From contig JBDRHG010000017.1 of NCBI GenBank assembly GCA_043817075.1, forward strand, positions 16,492 through 80,491: 64,000 nucleotides of DNA, given 5' to 3'. Shown in pieces: positions 6,501-28,843 of this stretch; the stretch's first letter is position 1, and every line of letters starts with the position of its first letter. A model generated the notes under the pieces. That model saw only the letters and a list, made by a program, of their open reading frames with translations. It had not been told where the DNA came from and did no database searches. The DNA is from an archaeon (lineage in GTDB: Archaea > Nanobdellota > Nanobdellia > Woesearchaeales > JAADFO01). The position numbers and the translations under genes are program-made.

Positions 6501-7276
6501 TGGTAGCTGACGGCATAACCGTTACGCACGAAACGCGTGGCATTGGACCCGACCTCGAGCTGTGCGGCGTCAAGCATGACCTCCTGAGCACTGTGAGAAG
6601 AGAGGAAGAACTGGACGATGATGTGCTTAGTGCCAGATGGAAAGTCTTTGGAGATCTCCTGGCTATAACGCACCCACGACTCATTGACGTTGATGAAGTA
6701 ATGCTTGGTGTCGATGACCGCCTCGGCTGAATCGTTGTAGTAGAGGATCTTGAGCGCGAGATTTCCAGTCCCAGAAAGCCTCTTGGCCGAGAACGACACC
6801 GTGTGCTTCTGCTGTCTATTGGCCGGGATATGCCTCGACATGATGTCATTATAGGTGGGATTGCCCCCGTAAGGCTGAGGAGCGGTGAGCTTGACACAGG
6901 AAGGTCCTTGTACGCAATCCTCGTTGACGAAGACCGTCTCAGGATCCATGACACGCCAGATGGCACGTTCCTGCACATCGAAGCCACCGTCAGGGAGACG
7001 ATTCTTGTAGTTGACCAACTTGATATGCCGTGACAGGTGCCCGCGCATATCATATTCAAGATAGGTCGTCGCGGCAGGGTCGGTGATCATGCAGGGTCGC
7101 CCCATGGAATACATGTGCAGAGGACAGGCGAAATCGTCATCATAGTGGAACTGTACCTGCCCTTCAGCGGCATATGGCATGTCTTGGGCGGCAGCAGGGA
7201 GGGCCAACAGGGTACCGGCTAAGAGGATATAGATTGCGATTCCCAGAATCCTGGTATGTCTATTGCTGCCCATCAT
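512..7276 (-). CDS. secreted 2254-aa multidomain protein: RHS/YD-repeat segment with an inserted CBM4/9-like domain, Cys-rich CCGDD regions, cadherin/Ig-like domains, DUF4215-type Cys repeats, PKD domain, two CBM-like beta domains
   Basis: Signal peptide (LLALPAAA|QD); YD repeats (YDKGGRLT, YDDLNRLT, YDKAGNR, YDDAGNL, YDALNRL); CGNxxxDxGExCDDG repeats; NRAP...DPDFDPLTF Ig-like; APLTAMFSC PKD; no C-terminal TM. Confidence 0.9.
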   Translation of the reverse strand: MMGSNRHTRILGIAIYILLAGTLLALPAAAQDMPYAAEGQVQFHYDDDFACPLHMYSMGRPCMITDPAATTYLEYDMRGHLSRHIKLVNYKNRLPDGGFDVQERAIWRVMDPETVFVNEDCVQGPSCVKLTAPQPYGGNPTYNDIMSRHIPANRQQKHTVSFSAKRLSGTGNLALKILYYNDSAEAVIDTKHYFINVNESWVRYSQEISKDFPSGTKHIIVQFFLSSHSAQEVMLDAAQLEVGSNATRFVRNGYAVSYQYDKGGRLTRLDDPDNRHTHYTYNLLDQTTGISIDLDGDGTVDIQDAVSVDYNPSNAYSSLTLGSVVAATFGLSPRNYLESIDSSTLKETYTYGPAGNLLSITEALSGASAGFAYDDLNRLTDVDDKGYYLPVPDPSGGAYDVSFAYDKAGNRISRDDIQFTIEPGTNRLLQDGYFTYTYDDAGNLQTRNSLDPNAGTYVYGYDALNRLISVSYVPFDQESAAGYDIRYLYDYTSSRIIKESIRETSLVDITLNTYDQASNLIYQEQYRMCDADQYVNLSGIRSPECCVGALHAEYDNDSVNVPPQAWVHVGLDPTDLDTYLCCGDDAFEYPAIYRDWDPADTHVCFAPNNNCGGTTYTNPTDSACCEEDRSCVMNATCYPRLAMLDIQDALPDDSDESADFEFCVGFINYSAWMDADVGDSNRDGNPYCETYWGKDWVSPEDGWRCEPADRWGDGGLDYCDDTASGTVGPGGNRLLNTPGNGMRGVTAQATAPSGNGNTYDNGDNGLRGPTGEGITQNYCCGDDPKEFFVCADEENADDCACCDNPDDVVNQGECADARYPFTPSVNVTGTEIWSYEGYYGVQESMPDFTDLVNGYLEGCREGTIDCDCHAGNCLVPVDFISDGGVLAGDNVQIRYVLNGPPVCHFPDFYVDEGELLTIRAMDFISDPDDPVLSYEADLPSVLQNRGASFDGEVLTWQTEVGDYGVYQVIFSAEDDGNPPPQLSCSQEVNIYVGYTNRAPTIYVDSPHTIKEGQLLTFEVSGTDPDFDPLTFSSDYSINVEGYGALPRRDLFNPDALRFSWQTGFSDVGKYAIEFEVTDVKGLSDTKIVLITVLENGDNLCENADYDYLFPTNMFVYGEGCHDPGKIMDMDTFGVGDAGTYRLVAKSYRPAGSAEPNQAFTLEVNDKESAVSEDDADPATVSIRYEDFGSFSFVPRSNDVYMHTASTCENLGSSGEVHVEEICLFEDFFCGNNYLDPGEECEPKESRNNDYCPQDNSTCQGVFTATRDQYGDCSETCGCEEDDYDFACVADNCGAACAVDADCDDLDPLTDDSCSLTTCSCDNVYVPVCDNGVVDYSEGEECEYPGTPENQYCPQDPEECDAAKLGTRPAYGNCDATCGCQLTDYDYACVVGSCGATCAGDGDCDDLDPNTNDACILETCSCDHVYVPQCDNGVVDFDEGEECEYPGTALNQYCPQPSEDCDGPKYGARDGYGDCDATCGCQETDYDYACVKDQCGAACAVDEDCADVDPNTNDICDLSVCSCKHVYQPRCGNSIVDTGEDCDDGKNGDPTDQCSDACRFTKCGDGTMQSPNGEGLGGPPTPNNPFGTGYEQCDDGNNIDDDGCSALCVKETLPFRTCQGEGDLYFYQRQNPPNPFIPAATTFKVWYDQLVVFSRKDTVFTKVQLDGVDVPITCPKSFEDSFGVKVCAIDTYRGAEVSVDASLSWSGMDLGARAIQGFLAQNKDNPAYNIDNMDIVHDGHKTNEMYLIPDTYDFVFFDKYTINRPGQGIDYREMTVEITDPEGHVIFDEEYDQPYPDDIDGSVLITFDADIAGMYELETTTEDSNYWLWADCPRPDEVFCGDGVRDAGEECDEGFDNGVPCTPSYEGSCTYCSDECAVATVGGGYCGNGVTEGQEECDLAQYNGLVCSAGYGETCEYCEDDCTDVTITGPHCGDGWIQDEEECDDGGVANGDGCSSICLFENMAPVVTAFSSNVQSGFAPLTAMFSCTATGGEGPLVFTISYSDGTAGDEFLDKAPGQSVSATHIFTDVGDHTAVCMVADTDGDNAVSALDIEVIVFNGPATQAADLTVAGDGCSESIPATAGMSISVPSSGAYKVYGLVDRGGCASSAQAQLTAQTGHADWWNYHSTGCGRTYANMAEYFADTFTCPLVEHNSMYCEEEANEDFFVEIGGTRGPISGDDDHDALLVTSGWEYLGSFQLSAGSHQLSLKSATECEQTMCDKVCVAEEGCYGPTNCGEEGPGSVTVSGFAVYPVGN
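2700..3590 (-). repeat. three tandem ~101-aa (303-nt) Cys-rich repeats inside the 2254-aa gene
   Basis: GEECE..NxYCPQ..YGxC..CGC..YDxACV..CGAxCAxDxDCxDxDPxTxD repeated three times; GATACTCACACTCCTCACCCTC occurs at 2944 and 3247. Confidence 0.9.
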
Positions 7277-8387
7277 TCTTGTCTGACCTCTTTTTTACAG
7301 TGTCGAGACCTTCGCGGTCCAACGCATATGTCTCGACGATCTCCCGTCCGATCTTATCGTATTCGTGGGTCACGATATTGCCTTTCTGGTCGACCGATTC
7401 ATTAATCTTCCCGGTGAGCGTATAGGAGAAGGCGGTCCTGCCGCTGTCAGGGGTCATCTTCTCGACCAACCAGCCGGCGGAGTTGTATAGCCAAGTGAAC
7501 ACGGTCCCGATAGGGGTCTCGACCTTGGTCAGCTTCCCGAGCAAGGAGCTTTCGAAACGATGGGTGTTGTCAAAGGTGGCTCCGCAATGTTCACCGGCAT
7601 CGATGACGGCTCCGGAACGTAAGCAGGAGTCCGGACAGACGCATGGGCCTTCACTCTCACAGCCCGAGCACGCAGGAATGGTACCGCCGCAGCTCTGGCT
7701 ACGTGAAACATAAGTCCTTTCGGTCACGGTGCAGCCGTCAGGGCAACGGCAAGGTCCGGTTGCGCTACAATCTATACATGCCTGGTCCGGTCTGATCACC
7801 TTATCACAGCTCAATGGATCCCCAGGGGCAGCGTCGGGATCGCAGCAGCTCTGGATGCTGGTGCCAGACAAAGTCTTGAAGTCGGCGGTCGGACAGCAGA
7901 TGCCCAGACGGGAATCGAAGGTCTCGTCCGAGGAATCCCCGCAACAGCTGAACTCTTCCCGCGTTTGTCCCTCGTATACAGATTCCCCGATGAATATTCC
8001 GCCTTGCAATTGGCAGGCGAACCGATGCTCATCAGGATCATAGCAGCCTCCTACCCTGACATTGCGCTTGTCGAACCATCGTTCGACATAAACCTCTACG
8101 CAGACCTGCCCTTCGCAGCAGGGACAAGGGTTTTCATAACCAGGGAACCAAATCTTGCCATCATCGAGAGTGCTGCACCAAGGCGCTGACCGTTCCCCTG
8201 CCCGATACATCTGGTCAGCGACATTGCCTGAGACGCACTGACCTTCCTTGTTGCAGTCCCATGCAGAGACCGATAGGCTCGACAGTGCCATGAGGATCGG
8301 CAAGGCCAGGAGTATCATGCTTAACGCAGAGACTATGAGCCTACCGGTTGGATGTTGTCTGTGTCCCTTGCTGTCGTACTGTGCCAT
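7260..8387 (-). CDS. secreted Cys-rich protein ending in a short RHS/YD-repeat segment
   Basis: Signal peptide (SSLSVSA|WD); Cys-rich N-part; C-terminal LLGKLTKVETP..YNSAGWLVEKMTPDSGRT..YDKIGREI. Confidence 0.85.
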   Translation of the reverse strand: MAQYDSKGHRQHPTGRLIVSALSMILLALPILMALSSLSVSAWDCNKEGQCVSGNVADQMYRAGERSAPWCSTLDDGKIWFPGYENPCPCCEGQVCVEVYVERWFDKRNVRVGGCYDPDEHRFACQLQGGIFIGESVYEGQTREEFSCCGDSSDETFDSRLGICCPTADFKTLSGTSIQSCCDPDAAPGDPLSCDKVIRPDQACIDCSATGPCRCPDGCTVTERTYVSRSQSCGGTIPACSGCESEGPCVCPDSCLRSGAVIDAGEHCGATFDNTHRFESSLLGKLTKVETPIGTVFTWLYNSAGWLVEKMTPDSGRTAFSYTLTGKINESVDQKGNIVTHEYDKIGREIVETYALDREGLDTVKKRSDKNDGQQ

Positions 8388-8393
8388 GGTGAT

Positions 8394-10235
8394 TCACGGA
8401 GTGAGGTATGCTGGGAAAAGGTCCCCGTAATAACCGTCATATTCCTGCTCTGTGGTGAGAGGATTGCCGAAGAGGTCGAATGTGTGCTTGGCCACCGTGT
8501 TGTTCTCCCCTTTGATCAGGATGACAGGGTTTCCATCAACGCTCGAATAATCGTAGAGCAACACCGAGTCGTCTTCGTTGATGACTCTGAGGAGGCGATG
8601 ATCAGGTGACGTCGAGTACAGATATTCACGGTAATGGATCCCCTTGTCGGCAGGATCATATTCGCTGCCAGAGGCAAAGACTGGAGAATAGTCCCTGAAC
8701 ACTTTCCCGAAAGGATGGTAGGTAAACGTTGAGACTGCGTATTCATCAGAGCCGTCATCCTTCTTCATCCGAGTCTGGAGGAGATGGCCTCTACCATCAT
8801 AGTATTTTATCGTCTCAGTATACACACCGTCCGCGACTTTCCCACGGACGATGACCTGATGAGGTGAGGTTCCTGAGTCCGCGAAATTGAACTCTTTGAC
8901 CTCAGAGGGATCGTCTAGAGTGTCGCCCGGCAGAGCGATCTTGACTAGACGCGCAAGGGAATCATATTGCATCGTAGACTCCATTTTGTTCTCATCAATC
9001 GATTTGCTGACCTTGCCCATGGGATGATATTCCTTTCGCCAGGCAGGATCGCTGGCAGATCCGAACTCCTCATTCCAACCGGAAGTGGGATAGATTTCTC
9101 TGAAGCTCCCGGAGAACGACGTGAACTGTCTGTTGCCGTCCGGGTCGATCGATTCCTTGGGTGTGCCGAACCGGTTGAATGCCACGGTCGTCACGACCGC
9201 GTCGAGATCAGGAGAGGTATAGCCGTTGTTCCATGAGTAGGAATTGTCGAGGTTGAGGTCAATCCAGAGGTGGACTTTGTTGGGACGCCATACTGAAGAT
9301 GCCTGGCAATCGACAGGACAGGTGATGCTGGTCTCCTCTGACTGGCAGACATGGTCGCCGCATTTTGAGGAAGGAGGTGTATGGCTACGAAGTTGCCATT
9401 CCCAGATACCATAGGAATGGATCTTCTTGCACACATAATTGCCGCATGACTTGTCGAGATCGGCATCGTTAGGATCATTGCCACAACATCGCTGGTCCTC
9501 ACATGCGGCAGATTCCTCGTTTATCGATAACCAATCACCCCCTCGATCGCGGCAAGATGAAGGATTGTCTTCACCATAGAACCAATCCGGGGCATCGACT
9601 TGGCATGTGCCGGAGGTATCGCAGGCACCCAAAAAGGTGTCACGTCTGCACGTTTTCGTCCGGCATGCGTAAGCATTCCCTCTGAAGTCGCAATGACGGT
9701 AGCATTCCTGGTCCTCGACCATGTCACAGTCTAACTCATCGATTTCTACGGTGAAGGGCAGGATGTTGTTACTACCATCATCCATCTCTCCCATGAAGGC
9801 ATAGCATCCAGGATCGAGCTGGACGGTCTGGACCTCGTCTGGTCGCATGAAAAGAGTCTCTACTGAATCGGTCCACGTATAGGTGGACGCTATGTCAACG
9901 GAATAGCATTCATGGGCACTGGTTACATCTCTTTGGGCGATTTCGATGAGACCCATGGGATCTTCGTCACGGCTATCGCATTCCCCGTCGCGACAATCAG
10001 ACGCCGTGAAGACCATGACATCCACCACCTCCCCATTCTCTACCCAGACATTGTACGTGCCGCAGGAGTACGCGCCGACGCATTCGAAATTCTGATAGCC
10101 TTGAGCGAATGGCGCCGAATCCCACATCGTGACGCATTGCCCCGCCACCGAAGAGACCGAAGACAGGACGAGGAGCGCGACAGCTGAGGCGAAAAGGATA
10201 CGCAGTCCTAATGTGTCGTGTCTTGCCATATTCAT
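8394..10235 (-). CDS. secreted protein: ~250-aa Cys-rich module followed by an RHS/YD-repeat segment
   Basis: Signal peptide (SSVAG|QC); FNRFGTP..DPDGN, YDSLARLVKI, YYDGRGHLLQT, YHPFGKV, FDLFGNP. Confidence 0.88.
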   Translation of the reverse strand: MNMARHDTLGLRILFASAVALLVLSSVSSVAGQCVTMWDSAPFAQGYQNFECVGAYSCGTYNVWVENGEVVDVMVFTASDCRDGECDSRDEDPMGLIEIAQRDVTSAHECYSVDIASTYTWTDSVETLFMRPDEVQTVQLDPGCYAFMGEMDDGSNNILPFTVEIDELDCDMVEDQECYRHCDFRGNAYACRTKTCRRDTFLGACDTSGTCQVDAPDWFYGEDNPSSCRDRGGDWLSINEESAACEDQRCCGNDPNDADLDKSCGNYVCKKIHSYGIWEWQLRSHTPPSSKCGDHVCQSEETSITCPVDCQASSVWRPNKVHLWIDLNLDNSYSWNNGYTSPDLDAVVTTVAFNRFGTPKESIDPDGNRQFTSFSGSFREIYPTSGWNEEFGSASDPAWRKEYHPMGKVSKSIDENKMESTMQYDSLARLVKIALPGDTLDDPSEVKEFNFADSGTSPHQVIVRGKVADGVYTETIKYYDGRGHLLQTRMKKDDGSDEYAVSTFTYHPFGKVFRDYSPVFASGSEYDPADKGIHYREYLYSTSPDHRLLRVINEDDSVLLYDYSSVDGNPVILIKGENNTVAKHTFDLFGNPLTTEQEYDGYYGDLFPAYLTP

Positions 10236-18631: not shown

Positions 18632-21600
18632 ATGAATAGGTGGTTGAAAAAAGAGGGTGGACTACTTGATGTATTTATACGACCCTCTCTTCTCTGCTTC
18701 TCTGTTGCCATTCTGATTCTGACTTTCGGTATCCCATCGGCCGACGCCCAGAGCATCCTCTGCGAAGACGGCACACTGGTCGCCCCCAATGCTGGCGGCA
18801 CACCTCCTGACTGCACCATCGTAGCTTCCCAGACCTTATCTGTCGACAATGACAACCCACCGACCTATCGCTTCAACACCCTGACAGTCAACACTGACTT
18901 CCAGCTGTGGTTCCGGGATACGGGTGCCGTCGTGTTTTCCATCCGTGGCACTGGTGGTATTGGAGGAAGACACTCTGATGAAGGTGGTGATGGAGGAAGA
19001 GGCGGAAACAGCGGAGTTGCAGGTTCCAGAGGTGGATCCGGAATTAAAGGTGACAATGGTGACGAAGGGGGTACCGGCGGAGGCGGAAGAGTGGGAGGAT
19101 ATGCAGGCGGAATCGTCATAATCGAAGCCACCAACATCATCATAAACGGCAAGATTAGCGTCAACGGCTCAGTTCCGGCATCTCTCTCCGGTGGTACAGG
19201 AACAAAAACCGGAGGCGGAGGCGGAGGCGGCGGAGGCGGAGGCGGCGGAGGAACCATCACCATCCGTGCCAACGACCTTTCCGGAGCCGGCTTTGTCGAA
19301 GCAGGAGGCGGTCGTGGCGGCAATGGTGGAAAAGGTCATAATGATGGTGGATGCCGTCCATGGTTTTGCGACTTTGACGATGACGGTGGTGGAGGCGGAG
19401 GAGGCGGAGGAGGCACTGGCGGTTCAGTCATCATCTCCGCAAGCGTGAATATATTTCCAGATTCCAATATCATTCTAACTGGTGGTCCGTTTGGGAAAGG
19501 CGCCGAGAAAGTCGGAGACGCAAAAAAAGGCCAAGACGGTGATCCTGGTCCTGACGGCGACGACACCCCTGACGAACTGGCCATCGAGGACTGCAACAAC
19601 CGCGTGGACGACGACTGGGACCAGCTCGTCGACATGGGCGATCCTGACTGCTACAATATCTATCCTAATGGCCAGTGCCCTTCAACCAATTACGGCATGT
19701 ATGGCGGCGAAATCGGCGACGGTGAGACCTCGCCTGTGCCGCCGGCGCTCATTTCTGCTCAGGATGGATCCGACGGCTGCTGCGGCGACGATGATTTCAA
19801 CGGCCACTTCAGACTGACAGATGAAGATGATTACGCCCTCGGATGGACTATGGTCCCCATTGACGCGGGCATCACCCTGGATGTCACAGACAACAAACTC
19901 GATTTCAAGGTGTCAACAACTGACCCAGATTTCGTCGATATCTATAGTCCAATCATCGAGATTACCGACCCCAATAGACCATATGTGGTCAGGACGATAT
20001 ATTCTGCAAGGAATATTCCTGAAGAAGGCAACATGGTGCTAAACCTTCGATGGCTAAAGAGAGTCGAAGCAGAGTTCACGCAGGCTAGCCCCGACGAAAT
20101 AGTCACCCATGTCACCGGAGAGATCGACTATGACATGAAAATAGAGAAAGTGTTCGAAGGTGCCGCCCGCGACGGAGCCACTGCCATGCAGATATTCATC
20201 CAGATACGCGGCCTAGAATCGAGAACACAGGACGTAATCTTCACCTTCGACGATATCGAGATCATCCAGACCGGCGACCTTGGCTGGACTAACGCAGACA
20301 GCGAGTTTCTCTGCACTCACGATAGCGGCTGGAACTGGAAGGTATCCCAACTGTATGAGAACACCATCTTGTCACAGGTCGGCAACAGCGACATCGTGTC
20401 CAACGCCGACGGCTGGTTTTCCTGCGACGCAGGCACCGACGACCAGATAGACAAGGTGACGTACGGCGAGCTCGCGGACGACCACTACATCAACAAGTAT
20501 GGCCTCTTCCCGCCGTCGGAAGGTGGTGGGCAATCAGGAGATAACGGGTGGTATCGATGCATAGACTGGTGCGATCAGATCTGGGTTGATGAAATCACAG
20601 ATCCAAACACAGGCAGGGATAATCCTGAAGATCTGCTGTTCAAGGCAAGGAATTTATGTGGGGACGGTAGCGGGTGCGTACCCTATGAAGGTGAATCTTG
20701 TTGTCCTTCGGCACCATCATATCCTGCGAACTGCGACAAAACGATTAACGTTGACTGTTCTGATGGTAATCCACAGAACAATGTTTGTGATGTCTGCGAA
20801 CCGCCAGGTGATGGGGATGGAGGCGAAGAGACCCCTGACGGCATCGTTCCCGAAGATGCTTGTGACGATCCGAATTCAGAGGAGTGCATCGGAGAATCGG
20901 GAGGTACGTCTCATCTGACGTGTGCTGTCATCGCGAATCTGAAAGGTTTCACGTACGACCTCTGCGGCCAGAACGAAGTATGCGCAGACGGTGGCGTCTC
21001 ATTCCAGAGTCTCGACGACGGCTGCTGCATCGGCGGTCGGTGCCGCACACGAGACGAACTGGGCATCCAATGCACCAGCGGACATGTCTGCATAAAAGAC
21101 CTGGAGGTCTGTCCTGAGACGAGCATCATCACAAGCAATGAGAACGAGATCTGTTGCGCTGAACCCTGCAACATCAATCCCGACCTCTTCCTGGGCGGTA
21201 AACCGAACACGGCATTCATCTGCTATGAATTCGGCGAACATGCGTATTGGGCAGAGTGTTGCAGCCCCAATTGCAAGAATAACAATCTGAGGGAGAGCAT
21301 AACACTCTTCGAGAGAGGCAGCCCATTCAATATGCTATACAGCGCTGACTATAGGAACCAAGCTAGGACCAAACTCCTGGGAGGAGCCTTAAGAAGACGG
21401 GATATCTCAAAGAATTCCCGGAGTTTCTTGTTCAATCTGCTCGGCGCGGAGAACAATCTGGTAAGGAAAGGGAAAGGTGACTGGACCGGATTCGATCAGC
21501 TCGAGTTCTCAATCGCCTACACCAAACCTGTCCGTGGTCTAGAGATCAGGGGCTACGAAGAGAACGCAGCACCCATCTGCGACTTCAACAGCATTGATCA

Positions 21601-22426
21601 CTCCATCATAGAGTTCAGCAACAACGGAGACGCCAGCGGCAAATGGCACCACATCACGTTGCCGCTCAGGAATGATATCTGCGATATCGGCGACAATCTT
21701 GTCAAGGAGGTCTACCTCAAAGATCTTGACACCGCATCTCCGGACGAGATGATCAATTACGTCATTGACAATATCTATCTCTCGAATAGTGTTGAGGAGA
21801 GCTATTTCTGCACTGGCGAATATCAGACATGGATCCAAGGAATGGAACCGGAGACCACGGATGGACTGTACGATGAAGAAGACATCCCCTACAAGTATGC
21901 CTGCGAAGAACAACCTGGATACTCCTGGACAGGCGATCAGTGCTGCGGCTCGAAGACAGAAGGGTTTGGAAACGATGCAAAACGCGAATATTATATCGAT
22001 CTCCTAGCCGGTTGCTGGGATGGTGCAGGCGTCTTCAACAACCAACGCGCCAGCGATGCCACCGGACTCTTCCGGTATCGCAATGTGATGTTTACCATGG
22101 ACGAAGTCGAAGAAGGACGCGGCGACTTTTACTATTGCGGCCCGCATGTTGCCGATACCATCGGACTCACCGACATTGATCCTCCAGCAGAAAATTCCCG
22201 TGACCAGGACGCCAAGCTCCTCTTGCAGACCGCAGACACCTGTGAATCCATTGGCCTCCTTTACTGCAGCACCGATGACACCTTCAAGGCAGTGCCAGCA
22301 GGCCTCGAGATCGACGACGGCAACAATCCAGGCGCAGAGCTCTACGAGCCAGGCATCACCATACTCGGCCAGAAACAGCATCCGCCAGGCATGAGTCTAG
22401 TGAAGAATGGGGGGTTTGAGCGATGA
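18632..22426 (+). CDS. secreted Gly-rich/Cys-rich protein with CBM-like beta-sandwich domains
   Basis: Signal peptide (PSADA|QS); GGGGGGG..GGxI repeats; CCGDD; two domains ending FDDIEI and IDNIYL; C-terminus SLVKNGGFER. Confidence 0.88.
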   Translation: MNRWLKKEGGLLDVFIRPSLLCFSVAILILTFGIPSADAQSILCEDGTLVAPNAGGTPPDCTIVASQTLSVDNDNPPTYRFNTLTVNTDFQLWFRDTGAVVFSIRGTGGIGGRHSDEGGDGGRGGNSGVAGSRGGSGIKGDNGDEGGTGGGGRVGGYAGGIVIIEATNIIINGKISVNGSVPASLSGGTGTKTGGGGGGGGGGGGGGTITIRANDLSGAGFVEAGGGRGGNGGKGHNDGGCRPWFCDFDDDGGGGGGGGGGTGGSVIISASVNIFPDSNIILTGGPFGKGAEKVGDAKKGQDGDPGPDGDDTPDELAIEDCNNRVDDDWDQLVDMGDPDCYNIYPNGQCPSTNYGMYGGEIGDGETSPVPPALISAQDGSDGCCGDDDFNGHFRLTDEDDYALGWTMVPIDAGITLDVTDNKLDFKVSTTDPDFVDIYSPIIEITDPNRPYVVRTIYSARNIPEEGNMVLNLRWLKRVEAEFTQASPDEIVTHVTGEIDYDMKIEKVFEGAARDGATAMQIFIQIRGLESRTQDVIFTFDDIEIIQTGDLGWTNADSEFLCTHDSGWNWKVSQLYENTILSQVGNSDIVSNADGWFSCDAGTDDQIDKVTYGELADDHYINKYGLFPPSEGGGQSGDNGWYRCIDWCDQIWVDEITDPNTGRDNPEDLLFKARNLCGDGSGCVPYEGESCCPSAPSYPANCDKTINVDCSDGNPQNNVCDVCEPPGDGDGGEETPDGIVPEDACDDPNSEECIGESGGTSHLTCAVIANLKGFTYDLCGQNEVCADGGVSFQSLDDGCCIGGRCRTRDELGIQCTSGHVCIKDLEVCPETSIITSNENEICCAEPCNINPDLFLGGKPNTAFICYEFGEHAYWAECCSPNCKNNNLRESITLFERGSPFNMLYSADYRNQARTKLLGGALRRRDISKNSRSFLFNLLGAENNLVRKGKGDWTGFDQLEFSIAYTKPVRGLEIRGYEENAAPICDFNSIDHSIIEFSNNGDASGKWHHITLPLRNDICDIGDNLVKEVYLKDLDTASPDEMINYVIDNIYLSNSVEESYFCTGEYQTWIQGMEPETTDGLYDEEDIPYKYACEEQPGYSWTGDQCCGSKTEGFGNDAKREYYIDLLAGCWDGAGVFNNQRASDATGLFRYRNVMFTMDEVEEGRGDFYYCGPHVADTIGLTDIDPPAENSRDQDAKLLLQTADTCESIGLLYCSTDDTFKAVPAGLEIDDGNNPGAELYEPGITILGQKQHPPGMSLVKNGGFER
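18947..19560 (+). repeat. glycine-rich low-complexity coding repeat
   Basis: GGAGGC/GGCGGA runs encoding poly-Gly stretches separated by short beta strands. Confidence 0.8.
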
Positions 22427-25400
22427 TAAGGAATGTCAACGCAAAAAACGGACTCATCCTATTGGCGATAGCCATCGCTCTCCTCATGCTTCCAACGATC
22501 AATGCAGTATGCGGACAGACCTGTATCTGGCAATCCAATCAACAGGTGAATCAATATAATATGTTGAATGAATGGGTTGCCAAGGGCGCGTCTTCGCCAT
22601 ATAATAAGCTCTATAATATCTGGACTGATGCAGACAATACGCTGACTGTATCATTAGATGCAAACTGCCGTGAGGGCATAATGAGCTGCGTAGAGAGTCC
22701 ATATATCGGCGAGGTCATCCAGTATGATGCAACCGATGAGTGGGATTGCTACGCGTATGATTTTGTTGCGGATTTCCAATGGGGTAACAATTTGTTTCGA
22801 TCTTTATACATGGAGCCAGGGGATACCGAAGAGGTGACTCTTACCCCTGGATGCTACGCAGTCATGTTGGAATCAGACGATGAGAGAGGTTATGACGCGA
22901 TGCATCAGTTCACCGTCGACATCAATCTCAACAATGAATACGAAGAGAAACAAGACTGCTTCCTGGAATGTGAATACGAAGGTTCAACTAATACCTGCTC
23001 GAATCTTCCTTGCCTCGGACCACGTGATGACATGATATGCGACGGGAACGGCATTTGCATTGATCAACCATCAGAAGGCAATCCTGAGTTGGATTATGTC
23101 TCCTGTATTAAGTCGGCGAATCCTTCACCGGATTTCCTTTCGACGAGCGAGTATCCTGATAACTGTCTTCGCTGCTGCGGAAATGAAATTGATGATGGGG
23201 GAACGACTTGCGGCCCCTGGACTTGTAACATGATAACTTCTCCTTCCGTTCAGTTATATTGGTCCCGCACATTTTTCGATGACAATGATGGTGACGGATA
23301 CGGCGATCCCACATCTGGTGTGGAAGCGGAAACTCAAGGACTCAGAGTCACAGACAGCACCGACTGCGACGATACAAGAATAGATATCTATCCAGGCGCG
23401 TCAGAATCGACAGAGATCAATTGTACAGATACCATCGACAATAATTGCGATGGAGATATTGACGAGGATGACAGCGAATGCTCGCGTGACTTCTACGATG
23501 ACGATGACGGCGATGGCGTCATCAACCGATACGACTGGTGCCCTGAATCACCAGATAACCCCACTGACGCGAATGGCTGCTCCATCCCACCGACTCATTG
23601 GGAGATTGACTACACATCCATCAAGGACGACCGCTTCACCCTGCTCGAGGTCGAGACGGACGACGAATGCGGACTCGCTCCGCCATGCATCAATCTCAGC
23701 CACGAATTTACCAACACCCTCACACAGACATTCATCGCTCCGGAAGGAACCTATGCGGCCAAGGCCAACATCAAGGGTGAGAACGGCAAGGTGACGTTTT
23801 CCGCTGGGACTCTGATTGCGGAGTTCCACAACGACCAAGGAGACGAGCGGGAATTCGTCAGCGACCCGGTTGTCTTCATCGACGATACCACCGTAACGAT
23901 AACGCTGTCGATTGTCGATCCAGGTCGTAGCAACACTGAAGATTCATACATTGACGATGTCATCTTCGCGAAGATGAATGCCAATAACGATCCCGCGACA
24001 GAGCTGCCCATCCAATCCTATTATGACTACCAATTTTCAGGCTGTTGCCCTGCAGCCTATTGCTGGAACGGCACAGCCTGCATGCCTGCAACTCATTTCG
24101 ACAGCCAAGACGTCTACTACGTCTTCGCCGAGACCGAAAATGACGTCACGGACGAAGAAGGCAACCTCATCATCGAGGAAGGTTATCGTTGCATAGCGGA
24201 CGATGAAAGGAATGCCGACTGGTTGTTGTCGAACAAACAACCAGATTGGTACGGCACATCAGAAGGCTTCTGTGACAGCGAGACGGACTGCTTCGTCAGG
24301 CTCGCGGACGAGACCGATTGCGTCGAGATCCCTGAAGACGCTTGCTTTCTCAACGAGGAGATTCATTGGACAACGTCAGAATTGGTTGGTGAAATCACCA
24401 ATCCTGACGTCAACTGCCTTGCCGACGGCCAGTACATTCGCGACCATTACTGCGACGGAGGAGATTGGACCACTCGTACCGCAATCCTCGCCGCATTGTT
24501 CGAGAGGGTCGTCAAATACTACGGAGAAACAGACGCAGACTACACGCTCCATTGCGACAAAGGAGAACAGTCACTGAATCTATTACCAGATGTGCTCTCC
24601 GACTCAGAATACCTTCAAGAACAGCTGCGGTACTGTGTGCTCACCTTCAGGGACAGCCAAGGCGATGCGGAGAAGACCATCGTCGGCGCTCCAATCTTCA
24701 AGCTCAGCGTGGACATCACCAATCAGGCTAAATTCGATGAATACATGGAAAGTTTTTTCGATATGAATAGGCTAGACCAATTCCAGGCAGAAGAGGTCAT
24801 CAGTACTTGCCCTGACGCTTTCGAAGAAGAGCTCACCGAAACAGAGAAGGACGCTTTCTTCGAATGCGAAATCACATCAGCGAAAGCGGGCGAACTATGG
24901 TATAATCCCCGCCTCAAGATAGCCGTCTATTCCCAACAGCATGACCTGCCGATCCAAGACGCTTACGAGACTACGCAAGCGGAAAACGATGATCCCGATT
25001 TCGACTTCCTCGAATTCATCACCAGGCCTTTCAATGCGCTGTTCGAGCTCGTCCGCAACCTCATCAACGGACCTGAGCAGCTACAGCCAAAGGAGTTCGA
25101 CCAGCTATACGAGAACAAGGCGCATGGACGGTCCGTCGAGGGAATCAGCAGAGATATATGGACCGACACCGGGCTCGCCTTCGACCAGTTCTACATCAAT
25201 TTCGAGGACATCAGCGAGGACCTCTGCGATCCTATCAATCGGGCCGTCGGAGTGAGCTTTGATTCCTCAAGATTCTATGAGGACTGCGTCCGCGACCTCT
25301 CTGCTCAGCAGTCCGATATCGCGACGTACATCCGAGGACCTGGACGTGAACGGTTCTGGCCAGGCATCTCTGGGATGCTGCGCATCCAAGACGACAATAC

Positions 25401-25707
25401 CTGCAGCGAGGACGGCCAAACATGCGGTGACGGCAGGCTCTGCTCAGAAGGGAGGTGCGTCGACATGACGACCGACCGAAAGCACTGCGGCGGATGGGAG
25501 ACTGAATGCATATCGACACAGATCTGCCAGGGAAGCGATTGCGTCGACTGCCCTAACCTCCAGGTCGCATGCGACAACGTCTGCACAGACACGCTCAATG
25601 ATGAGTTGAACTGCGGCATCTGTTTCCATGAATGCGATGACGGCATCGAATGCCGACGTGGCATCTGCGGATCAGGCGGCGGCGGCAATGGCAACAACCT
25701 GCAATGA
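22423..25707 (+). CDS. secreted Cys-rich multidomain protein (shared ~250-aa module, Asp-rich metal-binding motifs, partial CBM-like domain, C-terminal Cys repeats)
   Basis: Signal peptide (PTINA|VC); DNDGDGYGDP..DCDD..IYPGA..DNNCDG; CxDxxxDxxHCG/NCG repeats; ATGA overlap with the upstream gene. Confidence 0.88.
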   Translation: MIRNVNAKNGLILLAIAIALLMLPTINAVCGQTCIWQSNQQVNQYNMLNEWVAKGASSPYNKLYNIWTDADNTLTVSLDANCREGIMSCVESPYIGEVIQYDATDEWDCYAYDFVADFQWGNNLFRSLYMEPGDTEEVTLTPGCYAVMLESDDERGYDAMHQFTVDINLNNEYEEKQDCFLECEYEGSTNTCSNLPCLGPRDDMICDGNGICIDQPSEGNPELDYVSCIKSANPSPDFLSTSEYPDNCLRCCGNEIDDGGTTCGPWTCNMITSPSVQLYWSRTFFDDNDGDGYGDPTSGVEAETQGLRVTDSTDCDDTRIDIYPGASESTEINCTDTIDNNCDGDIDEDDSECSRDFYDDDDGDGVINRYDWCPESPDNPTDANGCSIPPTHWEIDYTSIKDDRFTLLEVETDDECGLAPPCINLSHEFTNTLTQTFIAPEGTYAAKANIKGENGKVTFSAGTLIAEFHNDQGDEREFVSDPVVFIDDTTVTITLSIVDPGRSNTEDSYIDDVIFAKMNANNDPATELPIQSYYDYQFSGCCPAAYCWNGTACMPATHFDSQDVYYVFAETENDVTDEEGNLIIEEGYRCIADDERNADWLLSNKQPDWYGTSEGFCDSETDCFVRLADETDCVEIPEDACFLNEEIHWTTSELVGEITNPDVNCLADGQYIRDHYCDGGDWTTRTAILAALFERVVKYYGETDADYTLHCDKGEQSLNLLPDVLSDSEYLQEQLRYCVLTFRDSQGDAEKTIVGAPIFKLSVDITNQAKFDEYMESFFDMNRLDQFQAEEVISTCPDAFEEELTETEKDAFFECEITSAKAGELWYNPRLKIAVYSQQHDLPIQDAYETTQAENDDPDFDFLEFITRPFNALFELVRNLINGPEQLQPKEFDQLYENKAHGRSVEGISRDIWTDTGLAFDQFYINFEDISEDLCDPINRAVGVSFDSSRFYEDCVRDLSAQQSDIATYIRGPGRERFWPGISGMLRIQDDNTCSEDGQTCGDGRLCSEGRCVDMTTDRKHCGGWETECISTQICQGSDCVDCPNLQVACDNVCTDTLNDELNCGICFHECDDGIECRRGICGSGGGGNGNNLQ

Positions 25708-25726
25708 CCATGAACCGAAACATAAA

Positions 25727-28700
25727 ATGCTCAAGCGCGCCCAGATCACCATCTTCTTCATCATCGCCATAGTCCTCATCATGGCGTTCGCATTCGTCTT
25801 CTACATCACCAATGAGATCCGCAAGGCCAACCTCGAGGATGAAGCGGGCAAAGTGGCGACCGACCTGCTCAAGACAGGGGCCATACGCGAATACATCACC
25901 CAATGCCTGCATGAGACCGCAAAGGAAGGACTTCTTCTCGTCGGCAAGCAAGGTGGATCCATCTATACTTATCAGGCCGGAAGGACCCGCTTTCCCCAGT
26001 TAAGGACCATGACGTTGATGGCGTTCATGCCCTATCCTATACTGCCATACGAACAGGTAGACGCTGAGATCGATTGGCAGTACATGACCTATGGCATAAG
26101 CAGGCTCCGCGACACCGATACGGAACATGATCAGAATACCAGGTTCATCTCTCCACCAGACTACCCCTATCCTGGACCTCTTGTCCAAGACCCTGAAGAT
26201 GTGATCAGCCCGTTCGCCAGCCGGATGGAAGCGATGACACTACCACCGCTATGCATCGATGAAGGATCGAATGCCCGCGAACTGGGAAGCATACTCCATA
26301 TAGATCAAGTGGACAACACGTGTAATTTCTCCTACGGCCCGGACTCCATCCAGGACTATCTGCAAAAGATCGTCAAGAACCGGATGACGGCCTGCCTGGA
26401 ATTGGACTATATAGAAAATCTCGGATACGAGATCACCGAGGAGGAACCGATCAGCAGGGTGGTGTTCGGTGAATATGACGTGGGATTCTCCATAGCGTAT
26501 CCTTTCCGCATCACCGTACGCGGGCACGAACCCATCACCAAGATGGTGGAGTTCTACACAAAACTCCCGGTACGGATGAAAGACATGTATTATTCGGCCC
26601 GCCACATCATCGACACTGAAGGATATGATATCTTCTTCCAGCCCGAGGTGGATTACGCCACAGCCGACAGATGCATCGGCATTGACAGGAAAAAGGTCGA
26701 CTGTGTTCCCGAAGGAATCACGGTGGAACGCTTCGAAGATGCCTGTAGTCCGACGGTCTGCCTCGCGCCGAACTTCAATGACGTGGTGCGGCTCAGCGAC
26801 GATTTCTCCCGCATCGACGACAAGCCCTACATGTTCCAGTTCGGCATGCAGAACCGTCCGCCGGCGCTCGATCTCATCGATCCGAGCCCGCATGAACGTT
26901 TCGACATCATCGCCGATGAGACAGAGCTGGTCACGATCGATCCGCGCGGCATCGATCCCGACGGCGACTACCATGGACTCATCGTCGATGGCATGGACAT
27001 CATGGTCAGCGCCTATTCCTATGGCGGTTGGGGCGAGGAGTGCACGTCGACCTTCGATGCGTCCATCTGCACCGCGGCCGGAGTCAGCCCATTAGAGAAC
27101 CCGTGGCTCTGCACCACGGAGCTGTGCGACCCGCCGAATGTGCCGCCCCCGGACGAACGATGGTCCGGATCGACGGTTTTCCAGGACGATGGCCGCCGTG
27201 CAGCGACCAAGCAGCTGACCCATGACGACCTCGGTGCCCACCGCGTCACCGTGCAGGTCTGCGACAAGGAAGGGCTCTGCGACCACCAGGACGTCACGCT
27301 CTTCGTCTTCGATCTGCCCACCGCCTCACCGACCGGCGGCAATCCATATAATTGGGACCATCTCCCAGAAGCGGATCGGGCAGCCATGCAGGCGCGCGCC
27401 AGCATCGAGGATCCTTATACCCTGGACGGCACCGCATCGTCTGTCGAGCTCGGTGACGATGTCGACGCTTACCAATGGACTCTTATCACCGAACCGACAT
27501 CACCTGAGGTGCTCTATCCCTGGGGACCAGAGGCTACGGTCCAGTATCCGGCAAGCGATCCATCCATCATGGATTCCATTATTGGCTTGGGATTCCAGAG
27601 GGCCGACGAGACCGAGACCGTCAAGCTCGAGGTGCGCGCCGACATAGCTGACATCTCGCGGCAGGATGACCAGTCCTTCAACATCGAGGTCAGGCTCTGC
27701 CTTCCGGTCGTCGTCCCCGGCGAGATTCCGCCATTCCCTTATCATGATGTGCTAGGTACGCGTCCGGCCGCCGACCCGTTCAAGACCGACCATGTCTGCT
27801 GTAAGCCTGACATGACCTATGTTGGGACCGCGACCCCGACCCCGTGTTACGCGAACACGCTCTACGGCTCCATCATCAATAATCTCCCGGATTACGGCGA
27901 TAGCTACGAATTCGGTCCGTACGAGACAGATCAAATCCTTGAGAACATGATACCGGTCAACGGCAAGATCAATGACGTCTATATGCAGGAGTTCACTCGC
28001 AACTGCGCAGAAGACCGTGGCAATGTGTGTTCTGGAGAAGCCACCCACACCTTGACTGTCCAACATACCTGCGACCCGATAGGCGGAGGATTGAGAGAGA
28101 CCTGCAACGGCCCAGACCAAAATTATAAGTGGGACGGCCCACAGACCACCGACGCCTGGGGCTGCGAAGACTACACAGGCACCACTTTTGAACAGGTCTT
28201 CGGCAACGGCGACGGTGTCTGCAGGGAGACCGGATGGACATGCTACCAGGACTATAGGGTAAACCAATGGACTTGTGGAAGCGGCGTGTGCGAAAGCCCA
28301 ATCACAGGCACCGGCGAGAACTGCAATACCAAGTATAATCTCTGCTATAACGCTGCTGGTGTTTCCTCCAGCCAGGATGACCCGGTGAGTTGCATGAACA
28401 GCCCGAAGAAAACATGCACCTTCAGGGACTACACCTGCTCCCAAGCCACCGGTACGGCCCAATGCGTCGTCGATGTGTCCAAACCCGACTTCGACTTCGA
28501 CAAGGATGGCTGGACAGACACATGCGACCAAGCTCCTCAAAACCCATGCCTCCGTTATTCAAAAGATACCAACAACCCTGACGGCTGCGACGATAAAACT
28601 TGCACAGTAGAAAATGCACATACGATGTACTGCGCCTCGTGCGGAGAGAAGGGCAATCCCAATGACGGCACGATAATAGTGGAGGACACAGACCCAATCA

Positions 28701-28843
28701 CTGGTATGTCTCTGTTCTCAGCGTGCTGCGACAGCTCCAATTACTGCGCCAGCAGCATCAATACATGCGTCCCGAATAGCGAGAATCATCCCTCACCCCA
28801 TGCCGATTGGAAATGCATCGGCGGGACCTGGGATGCCCCCTGA
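25727..28843 (+). CDS. large pilin-like protein (class III signal peptide) with Ig/PKD-like and Cys-rich C-terminal domains
   Basis: MLKRA|QITIFFIIAIVLIMAFAFVFYI; start moved from 25628 to the ATG at 25727 to give the class III motif and remove the overlap; NRPPALD..DPDGD; LDGTASS..YQW PKD-like. Confidence 0.85.
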   Translation: MLKRAQITIFFIIAIVLIMAFAFVFYITNEIRKANLEDEAGKVATDLLKTGAIREYITQCLHETAKEGLLLVGKQGGSIYTYQAGRTRFPQLRTMTLMAFMPYPILPYEQVDAEIDWQYMTYGISRLRDTDTEHDQNTRFISPPDYPYPGPLVQDPEDVISPFASRMEAMTLPPLCIDEGSNARELGSILHIDQVDNTCNFSYGPDSIQDYLQKIVKNRMTACLELDYIENLGYEITEEEPISRVVFGEYDVGFSIAYPFRITVRGHEPITKMVEFYTKLPVRMKDMYYSARHIIDTEGYDIFFQPEVDYATADRCIGIDRKKVDCVPEGITVERFEDACSPTVCLAPNFNDVVRLSDDFSRIDDKPYMFQFGMQNRPPALDLIDPSPHERFDIIADETELVTIDPRGIDPDGDYHGLIVDGMDIMVSAYSYGGWGEECTSTFDASICTAAGVSPLENPWLCTTELCDPPNVPPPDERWSGSTVFQDDGRRAATKQLTHDDLGAHRVTVQVCDKEGLCDHQDVTLFVFDLPTASPTGGNPYNWDHLPEADRAAMQARASIEDPYTLDGTASSVELGDDVDAYQWTLITEPTSPEVLYPWGPEATVQYPASDPSIMDSIIGLGFQRADETETVKLEVRADIADISRQDDQSFNIEVRLCLPVVVPGEIPPFPYHDVLGTRPAADPFKTDHVCCKPDMTYVGTATPTPCYANTLYGSIINNLPDYGDSYEFGPYETDQILENMIPVNGKINDVYMQEFTRNCAEDRGNVCSGEATHTLTVQHTCDPIGGGLRETCNGPDQNYKWDGPQTTDAWGCEDYTGTTFEQVFGNGDGVCRETGWTCYQDYRVNQWTCGSGVCESPITGTGENCNTKYNLCYNAAGVSSSQDDPVSCMNSPKKTCTFRDYTCSQATGTAQCVVDVSKPDFDFDKDGWTDTCDQAPQNPCLRYSKDTNNPDGCDDKTCTVENAHTMYCASCGEKGNPNDGTIIVEDTDPITGMSLFSACCDSSNYCASSINTCVPNSENHPSPHADWKCIGGTWDAP

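What the first reader, a model, noticed from the sequence alone, without database searches (positions are those of the whole stretch)
9390..23270. The same signal-peptide plus ~250-aa module sits at a domain break in both divergent clusters
Seen: the N-termini of the 613aa (9390-10235, minus) and 1094aa (22423-23270, plus) proteins are clearly homologous. Matching pairs are YNVW/YNIW, CRDG/CREG, CYSVDIASTYTW..LFMRPDEVQTVQLDPGCYAFMGEMDD / CYAYDFVADFQW..LYMEPGDTEEVTLTPGCYAVMLESDD, FTVEI/FTVDI, QECYRHCDFRG/QDCFLECEYEG and RCCGND/RCCGNE. Both genes begin with an ATGA overlap on an upstream gene that stops mid-domain (RHS wall in one case, CBM-like in the other), and the interrupted domain appears to resume after the module. 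The 22423 copy looks more AT-rich than its flanks. Inference: a recurrent cassette that splits giant secreted genes while keeping both halves exportable, or a docking/adhesion domain presented at the split points.
Basis: partly seen in the sequence, partly recalled or inferred. Interest (0 to 1): 0.85.

Follow-up and report, generated by a model that had tools for sequence, protein, structure and literature searches.

The report
Shared orphan head on split surface-protein genes
Two neighbouring genes for secreted archaeal surface proteins carry the same otherwise unknown 250-residue N-terminal domain, but relatives show the gene splits are older than this domain, so it fills a variable slot and did not cause the splits.

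Summary
The N-termini of the 613-aa (8394-10235, minus) and 1094-aa (22423-25707, plus) proteins are homologous: BLASTP E 8e-23, and E 9e-12 with Cys masked. Both genes start with an ATGA overlap, and the plus-strand copy is locally AT-rich.

The "splitting cassette" interpretation does not hold. The module has two copies, both in this genome. It was found in none of 60 relatives, none of 400 genomes of the phylum, no other protein among 1.84 billion representatives, and no viral or metagenome contig.

Orthologous gene pairs are split at the same points without it. One is in a same-genus genome and one in a same-order genome. Each has an unrelated Cys-rich head after its signal peptide.

The splits themselves are real. 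The 1264|1094 pair is one ORF in five other genomes of the order. The YD/RHS operon is cut at different points in different genomes, and each piece starts with a signal peptide plus a variable head.

Best reading: a lineage-specific secreted head domain, a beta-rich part plus a disulfide-rich part. It was duplicated into the variable N-terminal slot of the second gene of two segmented surface-protein operons. Its function, adhesion or docking, is inferred.

The parts
10146..10235 (-). Signal-peptide-like N-terminus of the 613-aa protein (residues 1-30)
   Evidence: Translation. A basic start, a hydrophobic core and ...SVAG|QC were read by eye. No signal-peptide predictor was available.
9390..10145 (-). 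Module copy 1 (residues 31-282 of the 613-aa protein): beta-rich part A plus Cys-rich part B
   Evidence: for homology. AF2 pLDDT 40.8, with strands predicted in part A.
8394..9362 (-). Conserved body of the 613-aa protein (residues 292-613): small Cys motif, RHS repeat, DUF6443-like region
   Evidence: E 1e-33 to the G045 437-aa orthologue. DUF6443 26.1 bits against a cut-off of 27.8, and RHS_repeat 22.6 bits against a cut-off of 22.
10232..14005 (-). Upstream 1257-aa gene, first large segment of the YD/RHS-type operon. Its stop overlaps the next start (ATGA at 10232-10235).
   Evidence: the G045 orthologue ends at the same position; the orthologue is cut into two genes in G259 and G213.
7260..8387 (-). 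375-aa gene: signal peptide, Cys-rich head, RHS repeats (third segment)
   Evidence: orthologue C24_381 in G045.
512..7276 (-). 2254-aa gene: signal peptide, YD/RHS repeats, Ig-like domains, Cys-rich acidic repeats, PKD (fourth segment)
   Evidence: orthologue C24_1733 in G045.
18632..22426 (+). Upstream 1264-aa gene of the plus-strand operon. Its stop overlaps the next start (ATGA at 22423-22426).
22382..22423 (+). Conserved C-terminal tail PPGMSLVKNGGFER of the 1264-aa protein, a candidate orphan first strand of a jelly-roll domain
   Evidence: 11 of 14 residues identical to G001, against 40% identity overall; the motif normally opens a domain in related proteins; weak complex support.
22423..22509 (+). 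Signal-peptide-like N-terminus of the 1094-aa protein (residues 1-29)
   Evidence: Translation, read by eye.
22510..23270 (+). Module copy 2 (residues 30-282 of the 1094-aa protein), the locally AT-rich copy
23302..23559 (+). Asp/Cys-rich MopE-type metal-binding-motif region. Similarity to the G001 orthologue begins here.
   Evidence: Cu-binding_MopE 30.5 bits at residues 314-348; the alignment starts at residue 294.
23560..24057 (+). CBM-like beta-sandwich of the 1094-aa protein (residues about 380-545), followed by the conserved CCPxxYCWNG anchor
   Evidence: AF2 core pLDDT 65-81. Foldseek hits to CBM6, CBM36, CBM35, CBM4-2 and the CDTb receptor-binding domain, E 6e-4 to 4e-3; the anchor.
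25628..28843 (+). 1071-aa third gene of the plus-strand operon. It follows the split pair here and the fused gene in relatives.
   Evidence: The orthologues align from residue 31-36, so the real start is probably the Met at residue 34.

Best explanation
The module is a lineage-specific secreted head domain. It consists of a signal peptide, a beta-rich part of about 135 residues that is probably a sandwich, and a disulfide-rich part of about 110 residues.

It occupies a variable N-terminal slot of the second gene in each of two adjacent, divergently transcribed operons. These operons encode segmented giant surface proteins of a small-genome archaeon.

Shown here:
- The two operons are conserved in relatives.
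- Their large proteins are cut into consecutive genes, often overlapping by ATGA.
- Each downstream piece starts with its own signal-peptide-like segment.
- Between that segment and the conserved body, different genomes carry unrelated heads, mostly Cys-rich, from almost nothing to about 1000 residues.
- The splits exist without the module.

Inferred:
- The head, with its signal peptide, was copied from one slot to the other in this lineage, or arrived twice from an unsampled source. The two copies then diverged to about 30-34% identity.
- The segments are exported separately and reassemble outside the cell through their interrupted beta structures. The head then projects at the junction as an adhesion or partner-binding knob.
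For: Homology of the two copies.

Only two copies anywhere searched:
- Own genome, 2 of 11,647 six-frame ORFs, next best E 1.4.
- 0 of 60 relatives.
- 0 of 400 genomes of the phylum.
- Among 1,835,955,588 representatives, 5 proteins reached E <= 0.001. One is the 1094-aa protein itself. The other four are multi-repeat proteins whose scores are summed over 4-10 weak stretches.
- 0 confirmed of 35 pattern matches in viral contigs and 0 of 465 in metagenome contigs.

Splits without the module: G001 and G045. The module profile does not match those heads or the 375-aa protein's head, hhalign probability below 0.2%.

Operon synteny and variable cutting:
- The whole minus-strand operon is conserved in G045 with the same gene boundaries.
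- In G259 and G213 the 1257-type protein is itself cut in two.
- Heads there range from about 0 to about 1000 residues.
- In G259 three successive junctions overlap by ATGA.

Fission of the plus-strand pair: the 1264-like and 1094-body-like parts lie in one ORF in G002, G045, G042, G009 and G014. That is 5 of the 5 genomes I examined outside the genus, chosen because both queries hit one ORF.

Reassembly of the halves:
- The 1264-aa protein's tail is 11 of 14 identical to G001, against 40% overall.
- The complex prediction of that tail with the 1094-aa protein's jelly roll gave weak support. The score was 0.45 and the best of 3 controls 0.02.
- In the tool's calibration the mark was reached by 58 of 80 solved complexes and 2 of 110 mismatched pairs. 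At 0.60 or under it was reached by only 7 of those 80 and by both mismatches.
- The runs agree in at least 52% of contacts, and the partner's pLDDT is at least 38.
- Halves of a split gene may pass by likeness to solved folds.

Extracellular character: 7-8% Cys in the module against 0-4% in the bodies.
Against: - No structure could be obtained for the module. AF2 gave pLDDT 40.8 and the ESM Atlas gave nothing above 0.78. Its fold and function are therefore unassigned.
- Homology of part B rests on the cysteine pattern, masked E 7.1.
- The direction and date of the duplication cannot be set. The three closest genomes (G001-G003) gave no match to the 1257-aa protein, and they are 85-90% complete.
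- Low GC3 in both copies could instead mean arrival from outside.
- Separate export and reassembly of the segments is inferred. The only test gave weak support.
- The jelly roll of the 1094-aa protein could not be aligned to the insert of the fused G002 protein, apart from the CCP anchor. A cut inside that domain is therefore not proven.
- The signal peptides were judged by eye.
Confidence: 0.6

Rival explanations
1. One reading: a mobile cassette (stop, start, signal peptide, module) inserts into giant secreted genes and splits them while keeping both halves exportable.
For: - The module lies exactly at two split points with ATGA overlaps.
- The plus-strand pair is a real fission.
- Similarity between the copies starts at the signal peptide.
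- The plus-strand copy is locally AT-rich.
Against: - The same splits exist without the module in G001 and G045.
- Only two copies were found anywhere.
- There are no flanking repeats and no DNA-level similarity between the copies.
- No recombinase family appeared in the Pfam scans of the cluster genes.
- The MopE-type region that follows the head is shared with G001, so the split predates the head difference.
Confidence: 0.05
2. The module is a dedicated docking domain. It is needed to re-join the downstream half to its upstream partner, or to tie both complexes to one common anchor.
For: - Both carriers are the second gene of their operon, directly after the large first subunit.
- The same head on two different complexes suggests a common binding partner.
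- The module is Cys-rich and so probably extracellular.
Against: - Orthologous split pairs lack it and carry unrelated heads, so docking of the halves cannot depend on it in general.
- No binding test of the module itself was run.
Confidence: 0.15
3. The two copies are independent acquisitions from an unsampled outside source, not an internal duplication.
For: - GC3 is 0.494 and 0.583, against a mean of 0.69 in the cluster genes.
- The copies are only 30-34% identical.
- The module is absent from G001 of the same genus.
Against: - No donor was found in 1.84 billion representatives, viral contigs or metagenome contigs.
- Part B carries the CCG[DN][DE] motif. Six of its 11 occurrences in the genome lie in five proteins of these clusters, which hints at a home-grown origin.
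- Orthologous surface proteins within this genus are themselves only 28-40% identical. Such divergence therefore does not need a foreign source.
Confidence: 0.15
4. The similarity is a compositional artefact of two Cys-rich secreted N-termini.
For: Part B loses significance when Cys is masked.
Against: - Part A keeps E 5e-12 when masked.
- The whole module keeps E 9e-12 and z 22 when masked.
Confidence: 0.01

Closest known systems
TcB/TcC pair of bacterial Tc toxins (a YD/RHS cocoon built from two polypeptides); recalled from general knowledge, with only abstracts seen in the listing
   Same: A YD/RHS-type structure is encoded by consecutive genes. The first protein has an SpvB-like N-terminus, weak here at 13.2 bits. 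Later pieces carry RHS repeats.
   Different: - Here there are three to five pieces, each with its own signal peptide and a variable head.
- No RHS core or toxin tip was detected.
- The host is an archaeon.
- The cut points differ between genomes.
Single-chain bacterial YD/RHS proteins with DUF6443 (Bacteroidota type)
   Same: - The N-terminal roughly 100 residues of the 1257-aa protein match 68 proteins of 897-2197 aa.
- Five picked ones carry DUF6443 or RHS repeats at residues 875-1226 of the same chain.
- The 613-aa protein's body has DUF6443-like and RHS repeat matches.
   Different: - Those are one polypeptide, while here the parts are separate genes.
- None of the 68 is matched by two different window proteins in BLASTP. 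The parallel is one of architecture, not shown orthology.
- None carries the module.
Split genes of Nanoarchaeota and other DPANN archaea (passages read in PMC6349945)
   Same: One gene elsewhere is two genes here. Close relatives differ in split state.
   Different: - The described cases are cytoplasmic information-processing enzymes.
- Here the products are secreted, each new piece has gained a signal peptide and a head, and the pieces stay adjacent and overlapping.
SpaA/Cna-B prealbumin-like and PKD Ig-like repeats
   Same: The only outside matches of part A are to proteins made of such repeats. They share a V-x-L-x-P-G-x-Y hairpin motif.
   Different: - Pfam finds no such domain in the module at E <= 10.
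- hhalign probability is 5.8% over 33 columns.
- The library scores are sums over many repeats.
Donor-strand complementation in chaperone-usher pili (recalled; an analogy only)
   Same: One protein would supply a beta strand that another protein's incomplete sandwich lacks.
   Different: Nothing here is related in sequence. The strand exchange is a hypothesis resting on a motif, tail conservation and a weak complex score.

Membership tests
YD/RHS-repeat shell proteins (context of copy 1) | RHS/YD repeats above the Pfam cut-off | tested here: met
   - 2254-aa protein: 43 bits.
- 375-aa protein: 28.2 bits.
- 613-aa body: 22.6 bits.
- The cut-off is 22.
- The 1257-aa protein has none.
YD/RHS-repeat shell proteins (context of copy 1) | RHS-associated core with a C-terminal toxin tip | tested here: not met
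   The NCBIfam scan at E <= 1 gave only RHS_core at 14.8 bits, against a cut-off of 2000, on the 375-aa protein. No core or tip model matched any of the four proteins.
YD/RHS-repeat shell proteins (context of copy 1) | SpvB-type N-terminal domain in the first subunit | tested here: inconclusive
   13.2 bits against a cut-off of 22. Homologue P0048 scores 19.2 bits.
DUF6443 (PF20041) | A match above the gathering score in the 613-aa protein's body | tested here: inconclusive
   26.1 bits against 27.8 here. The G045 orthologue scores 34.4 bits.
Mobile cassette or insertion element | Recurrence at several loci or genomes, terminal repeats, an associated recombinase | tested here: not met
   - Two copies, in one genome only.
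- No repeats at the borders.
- No recombinase family in the neighbouring genes.
Gene fission (split gene) | Both halves lie in one ORF in related genomes, in the same order | tested here: met
   - For the 1264|1094 pair this holds in G002, G045, G042, G009 and G014.
- For the 1257|613 pair no fused orthologue was found. There is only a parallel in architecture.
CBM-like jelly roll (residues about 380-545 of the 1094-aa protein) | Recognisable fold or family match | tested here: inconclusive
   - No Pfam match at E <= 10.
- The AF2 core has pLDDT 65-81, with a mean of 51.7.
- Foldseek gives CBM6, CBM36, CBM35 and CBM4-2 at E 6e-4 to 4e-3, with target-normalised TM up to 0.49.
SpaA/Cna-B prealbumin-like fold (part A of the module) | Family match or confident fold | tested here: not met
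   - No Pfam match at E <= 10.
- hhalign probability 5.8%.
- AF2 pLDDT 40.8.

The most novel reading that the evidence does not exclude
In this archaeal order, giant surface proteins are built from separately secreted segments. The segments re-join outside the cell by completing each other's interrupted beta structures. An example would be the conserved NGGFE tail strand of the 1264-aa protein inserting into the 1094-aa protein's jelly roll. The junctions would serve as slots where unrelated Cys-rich heads, including this orphan module, are swapped in and displayed. That would give a modular way to vary host or partner recognition.
Probability: 0.25. Interest if true: 0.7.

Novelty: new variant of a known kind. 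Interest (0 to 1): 0.45.

Why it matters
The module is a new two-member domain family with no detectable relatives, which on its own is a modest finding. The context is more useful.

- It gives a clean, datable case of fission of a secreted giant gene. The downstream half has gained a signal peptide and a head.
- It shows an RHS-type operon cut at different points in different genomes.
- If the pieces do reassemble outside the cell, this bears on how small-genome, probably host-dependent archaea build and vary their large surface structures.
- It also warns annotators that adjacent "truncated" giant genes in such genomes need not be assembly errors.

Tried and rejected
Structure of the module. 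AF2 on the two-row alignment gave pLDDT 40.8, too poor for a fold search, so none was run on it. The ESM Atlas gave no score above 0.78 by features and no TM above 0.46 by structure.

Sequence searches that gave nothing useful.
- Pfam and NCBIfam gave nothing for the module.
- The PDB sequence search gave no match for the 1257-aa protein. For the 613-aa protein it gave only weak immunoglobulin-E hits at E >= 0.004, taken as chance.

Alignments that failed.
- The jelly roll of the 1094-aa protein and the tail of the 1264-aa protein could not be aligned to the insert of the fused G002 protein, apart from the CCP anchor. A direct demonstration that the cut bisects a domain therefore failed.
- BLASTP of all window proteins against the 68 homologues of the 1257-aa protein's N-terminus found none matched by two window proteins.

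Sequencing runs. No RNA holder was listed. One DNA run held two exact 151-nt unitigs inside the plus-strand module. The other matches were to a Gly-codon repeat at about 19210-19252. This says nothing about expression, variants or assembly.

Literature. Three full-text searches and passages of three papers turned up no description of this module. They also turned up no description of secreted split giant genes with heads. Supplementary files were not consulted and may hold relevant gene lists.

Taxon. Only an archaeal SSU rRNA match and the small genome were seen.


Full report
LAYOUT. The window holds two divergently transcribed clusters of very large genes.
- Minus strand: genes of 258, 592, 205 and 359 aa come first. 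They are followed by 1257 aa (10232-14005), 613 aa (8394-10235), 375 aa (7260-8387) and 2254 aa (512-7276).
- Plus strand: 1264 aa (18632-22426), 1094 aa (22423-25707), 1071 aa (25628-28843) and 6099 aa (28987-47286).
- Housekeeping genes follow from about 50 kb.
- The genome is 1.52 Mb in 26 contigs and about 90% complete. Its SSU rRNA fits the archaeal model best.

THE OBSERVATION.
- The 613-aa and 1094-aa proteins align over 265 residues from inside their signal peptides: 30% identity, E 8e-23.
- The mature modules give E 9e-26, and E 9e-12 with all Cys masked. Smith-Waterman z is 34 native and 22 masked against 300 shuffles.
- The beta-rich first part is robust to masking (E 5e-12). The Cys-rich second part is not (6e-10 native, 7.1 masked).
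- Both ATGA overlaps are real.
- The plus-strand copy has GC 0.462 and GC3 0.494, the lowest of 233 windows in the cluster genes. It is only the 10th percentile genome-wide.

HOW WIDESPREAD THE MODULE IS. A profile of the two copies was searched widely.
- In the own genome it finds only those two copies. An hmmsearch --max over 11,647 ORFs gives a next-best E of 1.4.
- It finds nothing in 60 relatives or in 400 genomes of the phylum.
- It finds no confirmed match in viral contigs (0 of 35 pattern matches) or metagenome contigs (0 of 465).
- Among 1.84 billion representatives, five proteins reach E <= 0.001. One is the 1094-aa protein itself. The 613-aa protein was not listed, and I did not find out why.
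- The other four are repeat proteins whose scores sum 4-10 weak stretches. Two are SpaA-type: P0008 by Pfam and P0005 by eye. One is a PKD-repeat protein (P0007). One is a low-complexity repeat protein (P0006, by eye).
- Against one SpaA-repeat protein, hhalign gives 5.8% probability over 33 columns.
- Structure prediction failed, with pLDDT 40.8, and the ESM Atlas gave no lead.
- The module is therefore an orphan with two members.

THE SPLITS ARE OLDER THAN THE MODULE.
- G001 (same genus): the 1264-type gene ends ...PPGMNLVRNGGFEG and overlaps the next gene by ATGA.
- That 865-aa gene matches the 1094-aa protein from residue 294 to 1016, E 6e-82. Its first 182 residues are a signal peptide plus an unrelated Cys-rich stretch.
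- G045 (same order, another family): the whole minus-strand operon is syntenic, gene for gene.
- There the 1257-type gene ends at the same place. The next gene, 437 aa, matches the 613-aa protein from residue 292 to 604, E 1e-33. It has an unrelated 96-residue start.
- The module is therefore not what divides these genes.

THE SPLITS ARE REAL FISSIONS.
- In G002 (same family), G045, G042, G009 and G014, a 1264-like part and a 1094-body-like part lie in one ORF of 1202-2023 aa.
- In G002, G042 and G014 a 1071-like gene follows directly. In G045 it follows after a 290-aa ORF.
- Only the genus of the window (G000, G001) has two genes.
- The cut falls between two conserved anchors, C-x-I-x-G-x-x-Y-C near the end of the 1264-aa protein and CCP-x-x-Y-C-W-x-G in the 1094-aa protein. 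Fused forms have 22 to about 175 unrelated residues there.

THE MINUS-STRAND OPERON IS CUT DIFFERENTLY IN DIFFERENT GENOMES.
- G259 and G213 split the 1257-type protein itself, into 829|452 and 1026|305 aa.
- Every downstream piece starts with a hydrophobic signal-like segment. A head of about 0 to about 1000 residues then precedes the conserved part.
- Three junctions in G259 are ATGA overlaps.
- Homologues of the 613-aa protein's body occur in 31 of 400 genomes of the phylum, mostly inside ORFs of 797-3462 aa.
- The N-terminus of the 1257-aa protein recurs in 68 proteins of 897-2197 aa. Five picked ones carry DUF6443 or RHS repeats further along the same chain. None of the 68 is matched by two window proteins.

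IS THE UPSTREAM GENE CUT MID-DOMAIN?
- For the 1264-aa protein this is plausible. Its last 14 residues are 11 of 14 identical to G001, against 40% overall.
- N-[GP]-x-F-E opens domains in related proteins. In all 3 occurrences in the G213 orthologue a Trp follows 4-13 residues later; the single occurrence in the 6099-aa protein has none.
- The 1094-aa protein has ...PPTHWEI... ahead of a beta sandwich. The sandwich core is modelled at pLDDT 65-81 and weakly resembles CBM6, CBM36, CBM35 and CBM4-2.
- A complex prediction of tail plus sandwich gave weak support. The score was 0.45 and the best of 3 controls 0.02.
- In the tool's calibration, 58 of 80 solved complexes and 2 of 110 mismatched pairs reach the mark. 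At 0.60 or under, only 7 of the 80 and both mismatches do.
- The runs agree in at least 52% of contacts, and the partner's pLDDT is at least 38. Such halves can pass by likeness to solved folds.
- The fused G002 insert is not alignable to this sandwich, so the point is not proven.
- For the 1257-aa protein, Pfam sees no RHS repeat in its last 308 residues.
- The 613-aa protein's body does carry an RHS repeat and a DUF6443-like region.

READING. The module is one of many alternative heads in a permissive slot just after the signal peptide of downstream segments. It was placed in two slots of this genome by duplication, or less likely by two acquisitions.
- Part B shares the CCG[DN][DE] motif with the cluster proteins. 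Six of the 11 genome occurrences are in five of them, which hints at a local origin.
- There is no DNA-level similarity between the copies and no flanking repeats.
- Function is inferred from position, Cys content and context: an exposed, disulfide-stabilised binding or docking knob.

NOVELTY. Split RHS shells (TcB/TcC) and split genes in DPANN archaea are known (passages in PMC6349945; TcB/TcC recalled). Secreted segments that each gained a signal peptide and a swappable head did not turn up in three literature searches. I rate the finding a new variant of a known kind, of moderate interest.

Noticed in passing
window 28987-47286 (+): A 6099-aa ORF with Ig-like families (Big_13, Glucodextran_B, Y_Y_Y, Ig_J and others), probably a giant adhesin. 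It is the fourth gene of the plus-strand cluster. Part of it (residues 607-1429) matches the 2050+-aa ORF that ends the G045 operon.
   Followed up: partly
window 25628-25727 (+): The 1071-aa ORF overlaps the 1094-aa gene by 80 nt as listed. Orthologues align only from residue 31-36, so the real start is probably the Met at residue 34, about 20 nt after the upstream stop.
   Followed up: partly
window 512-47286, several proteins: The motif CCG[DN][DE] occurs 11 times in all six-frame ORFs of the genome. Six of these are in five proteins of the two clusters. It also appears in heads of G259 and G009 proteins. It may mark a shared Cys-rich element.
   Followed up: partly
window 2808-3410 (-) and 30277-30340 (+): A 300-nt tandem duplication lies inside the 2254-aa gene and encodes Cys-rich acidic repeats (myxo_disulf_rpt). 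Short inverted DNA matches show the same repeat type near the start of the 6099-aa gene.
   Followed up: no
window 18980-19420 (+): A Gly-rich low-complexity stretch, with runs of 10-14 Gly, lies in the N-terminal part of the 1264-aa protein. It attracts unrelated metagenome contigs when reads are laid.
   Followed up: no
L031 (G045:C10) and L029 (G045:C24): In G045 the counterparts of both operons lie on the same strand, one after the other: a fused 1298-aa gene, a 970-aa gene, then the RHS-type operon. In the window they are divergent. The two operons therefore travel together.
   Followed up: partly
G000:C3:1263-2648 and G000:C14:100393-101359: The genome holds one complete archaeal SSU rRNA gene and a second partial one at a contig end. 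This could mean two rRNA operons or a binning issue. It was not examined.
   Followed up: no
window 14002-18310 (-): The four smaller genes upstream of the 1257-aa gene (258, 592, 205 and 359 aa) have no Pfam family. The 592-, 205- and 359-aa genes have counterparts in the same order in G045, and the 359-aa gene also in G259 and G213. They may be conserved accessory parts of the RHS-type operon.
   Followed up: partly
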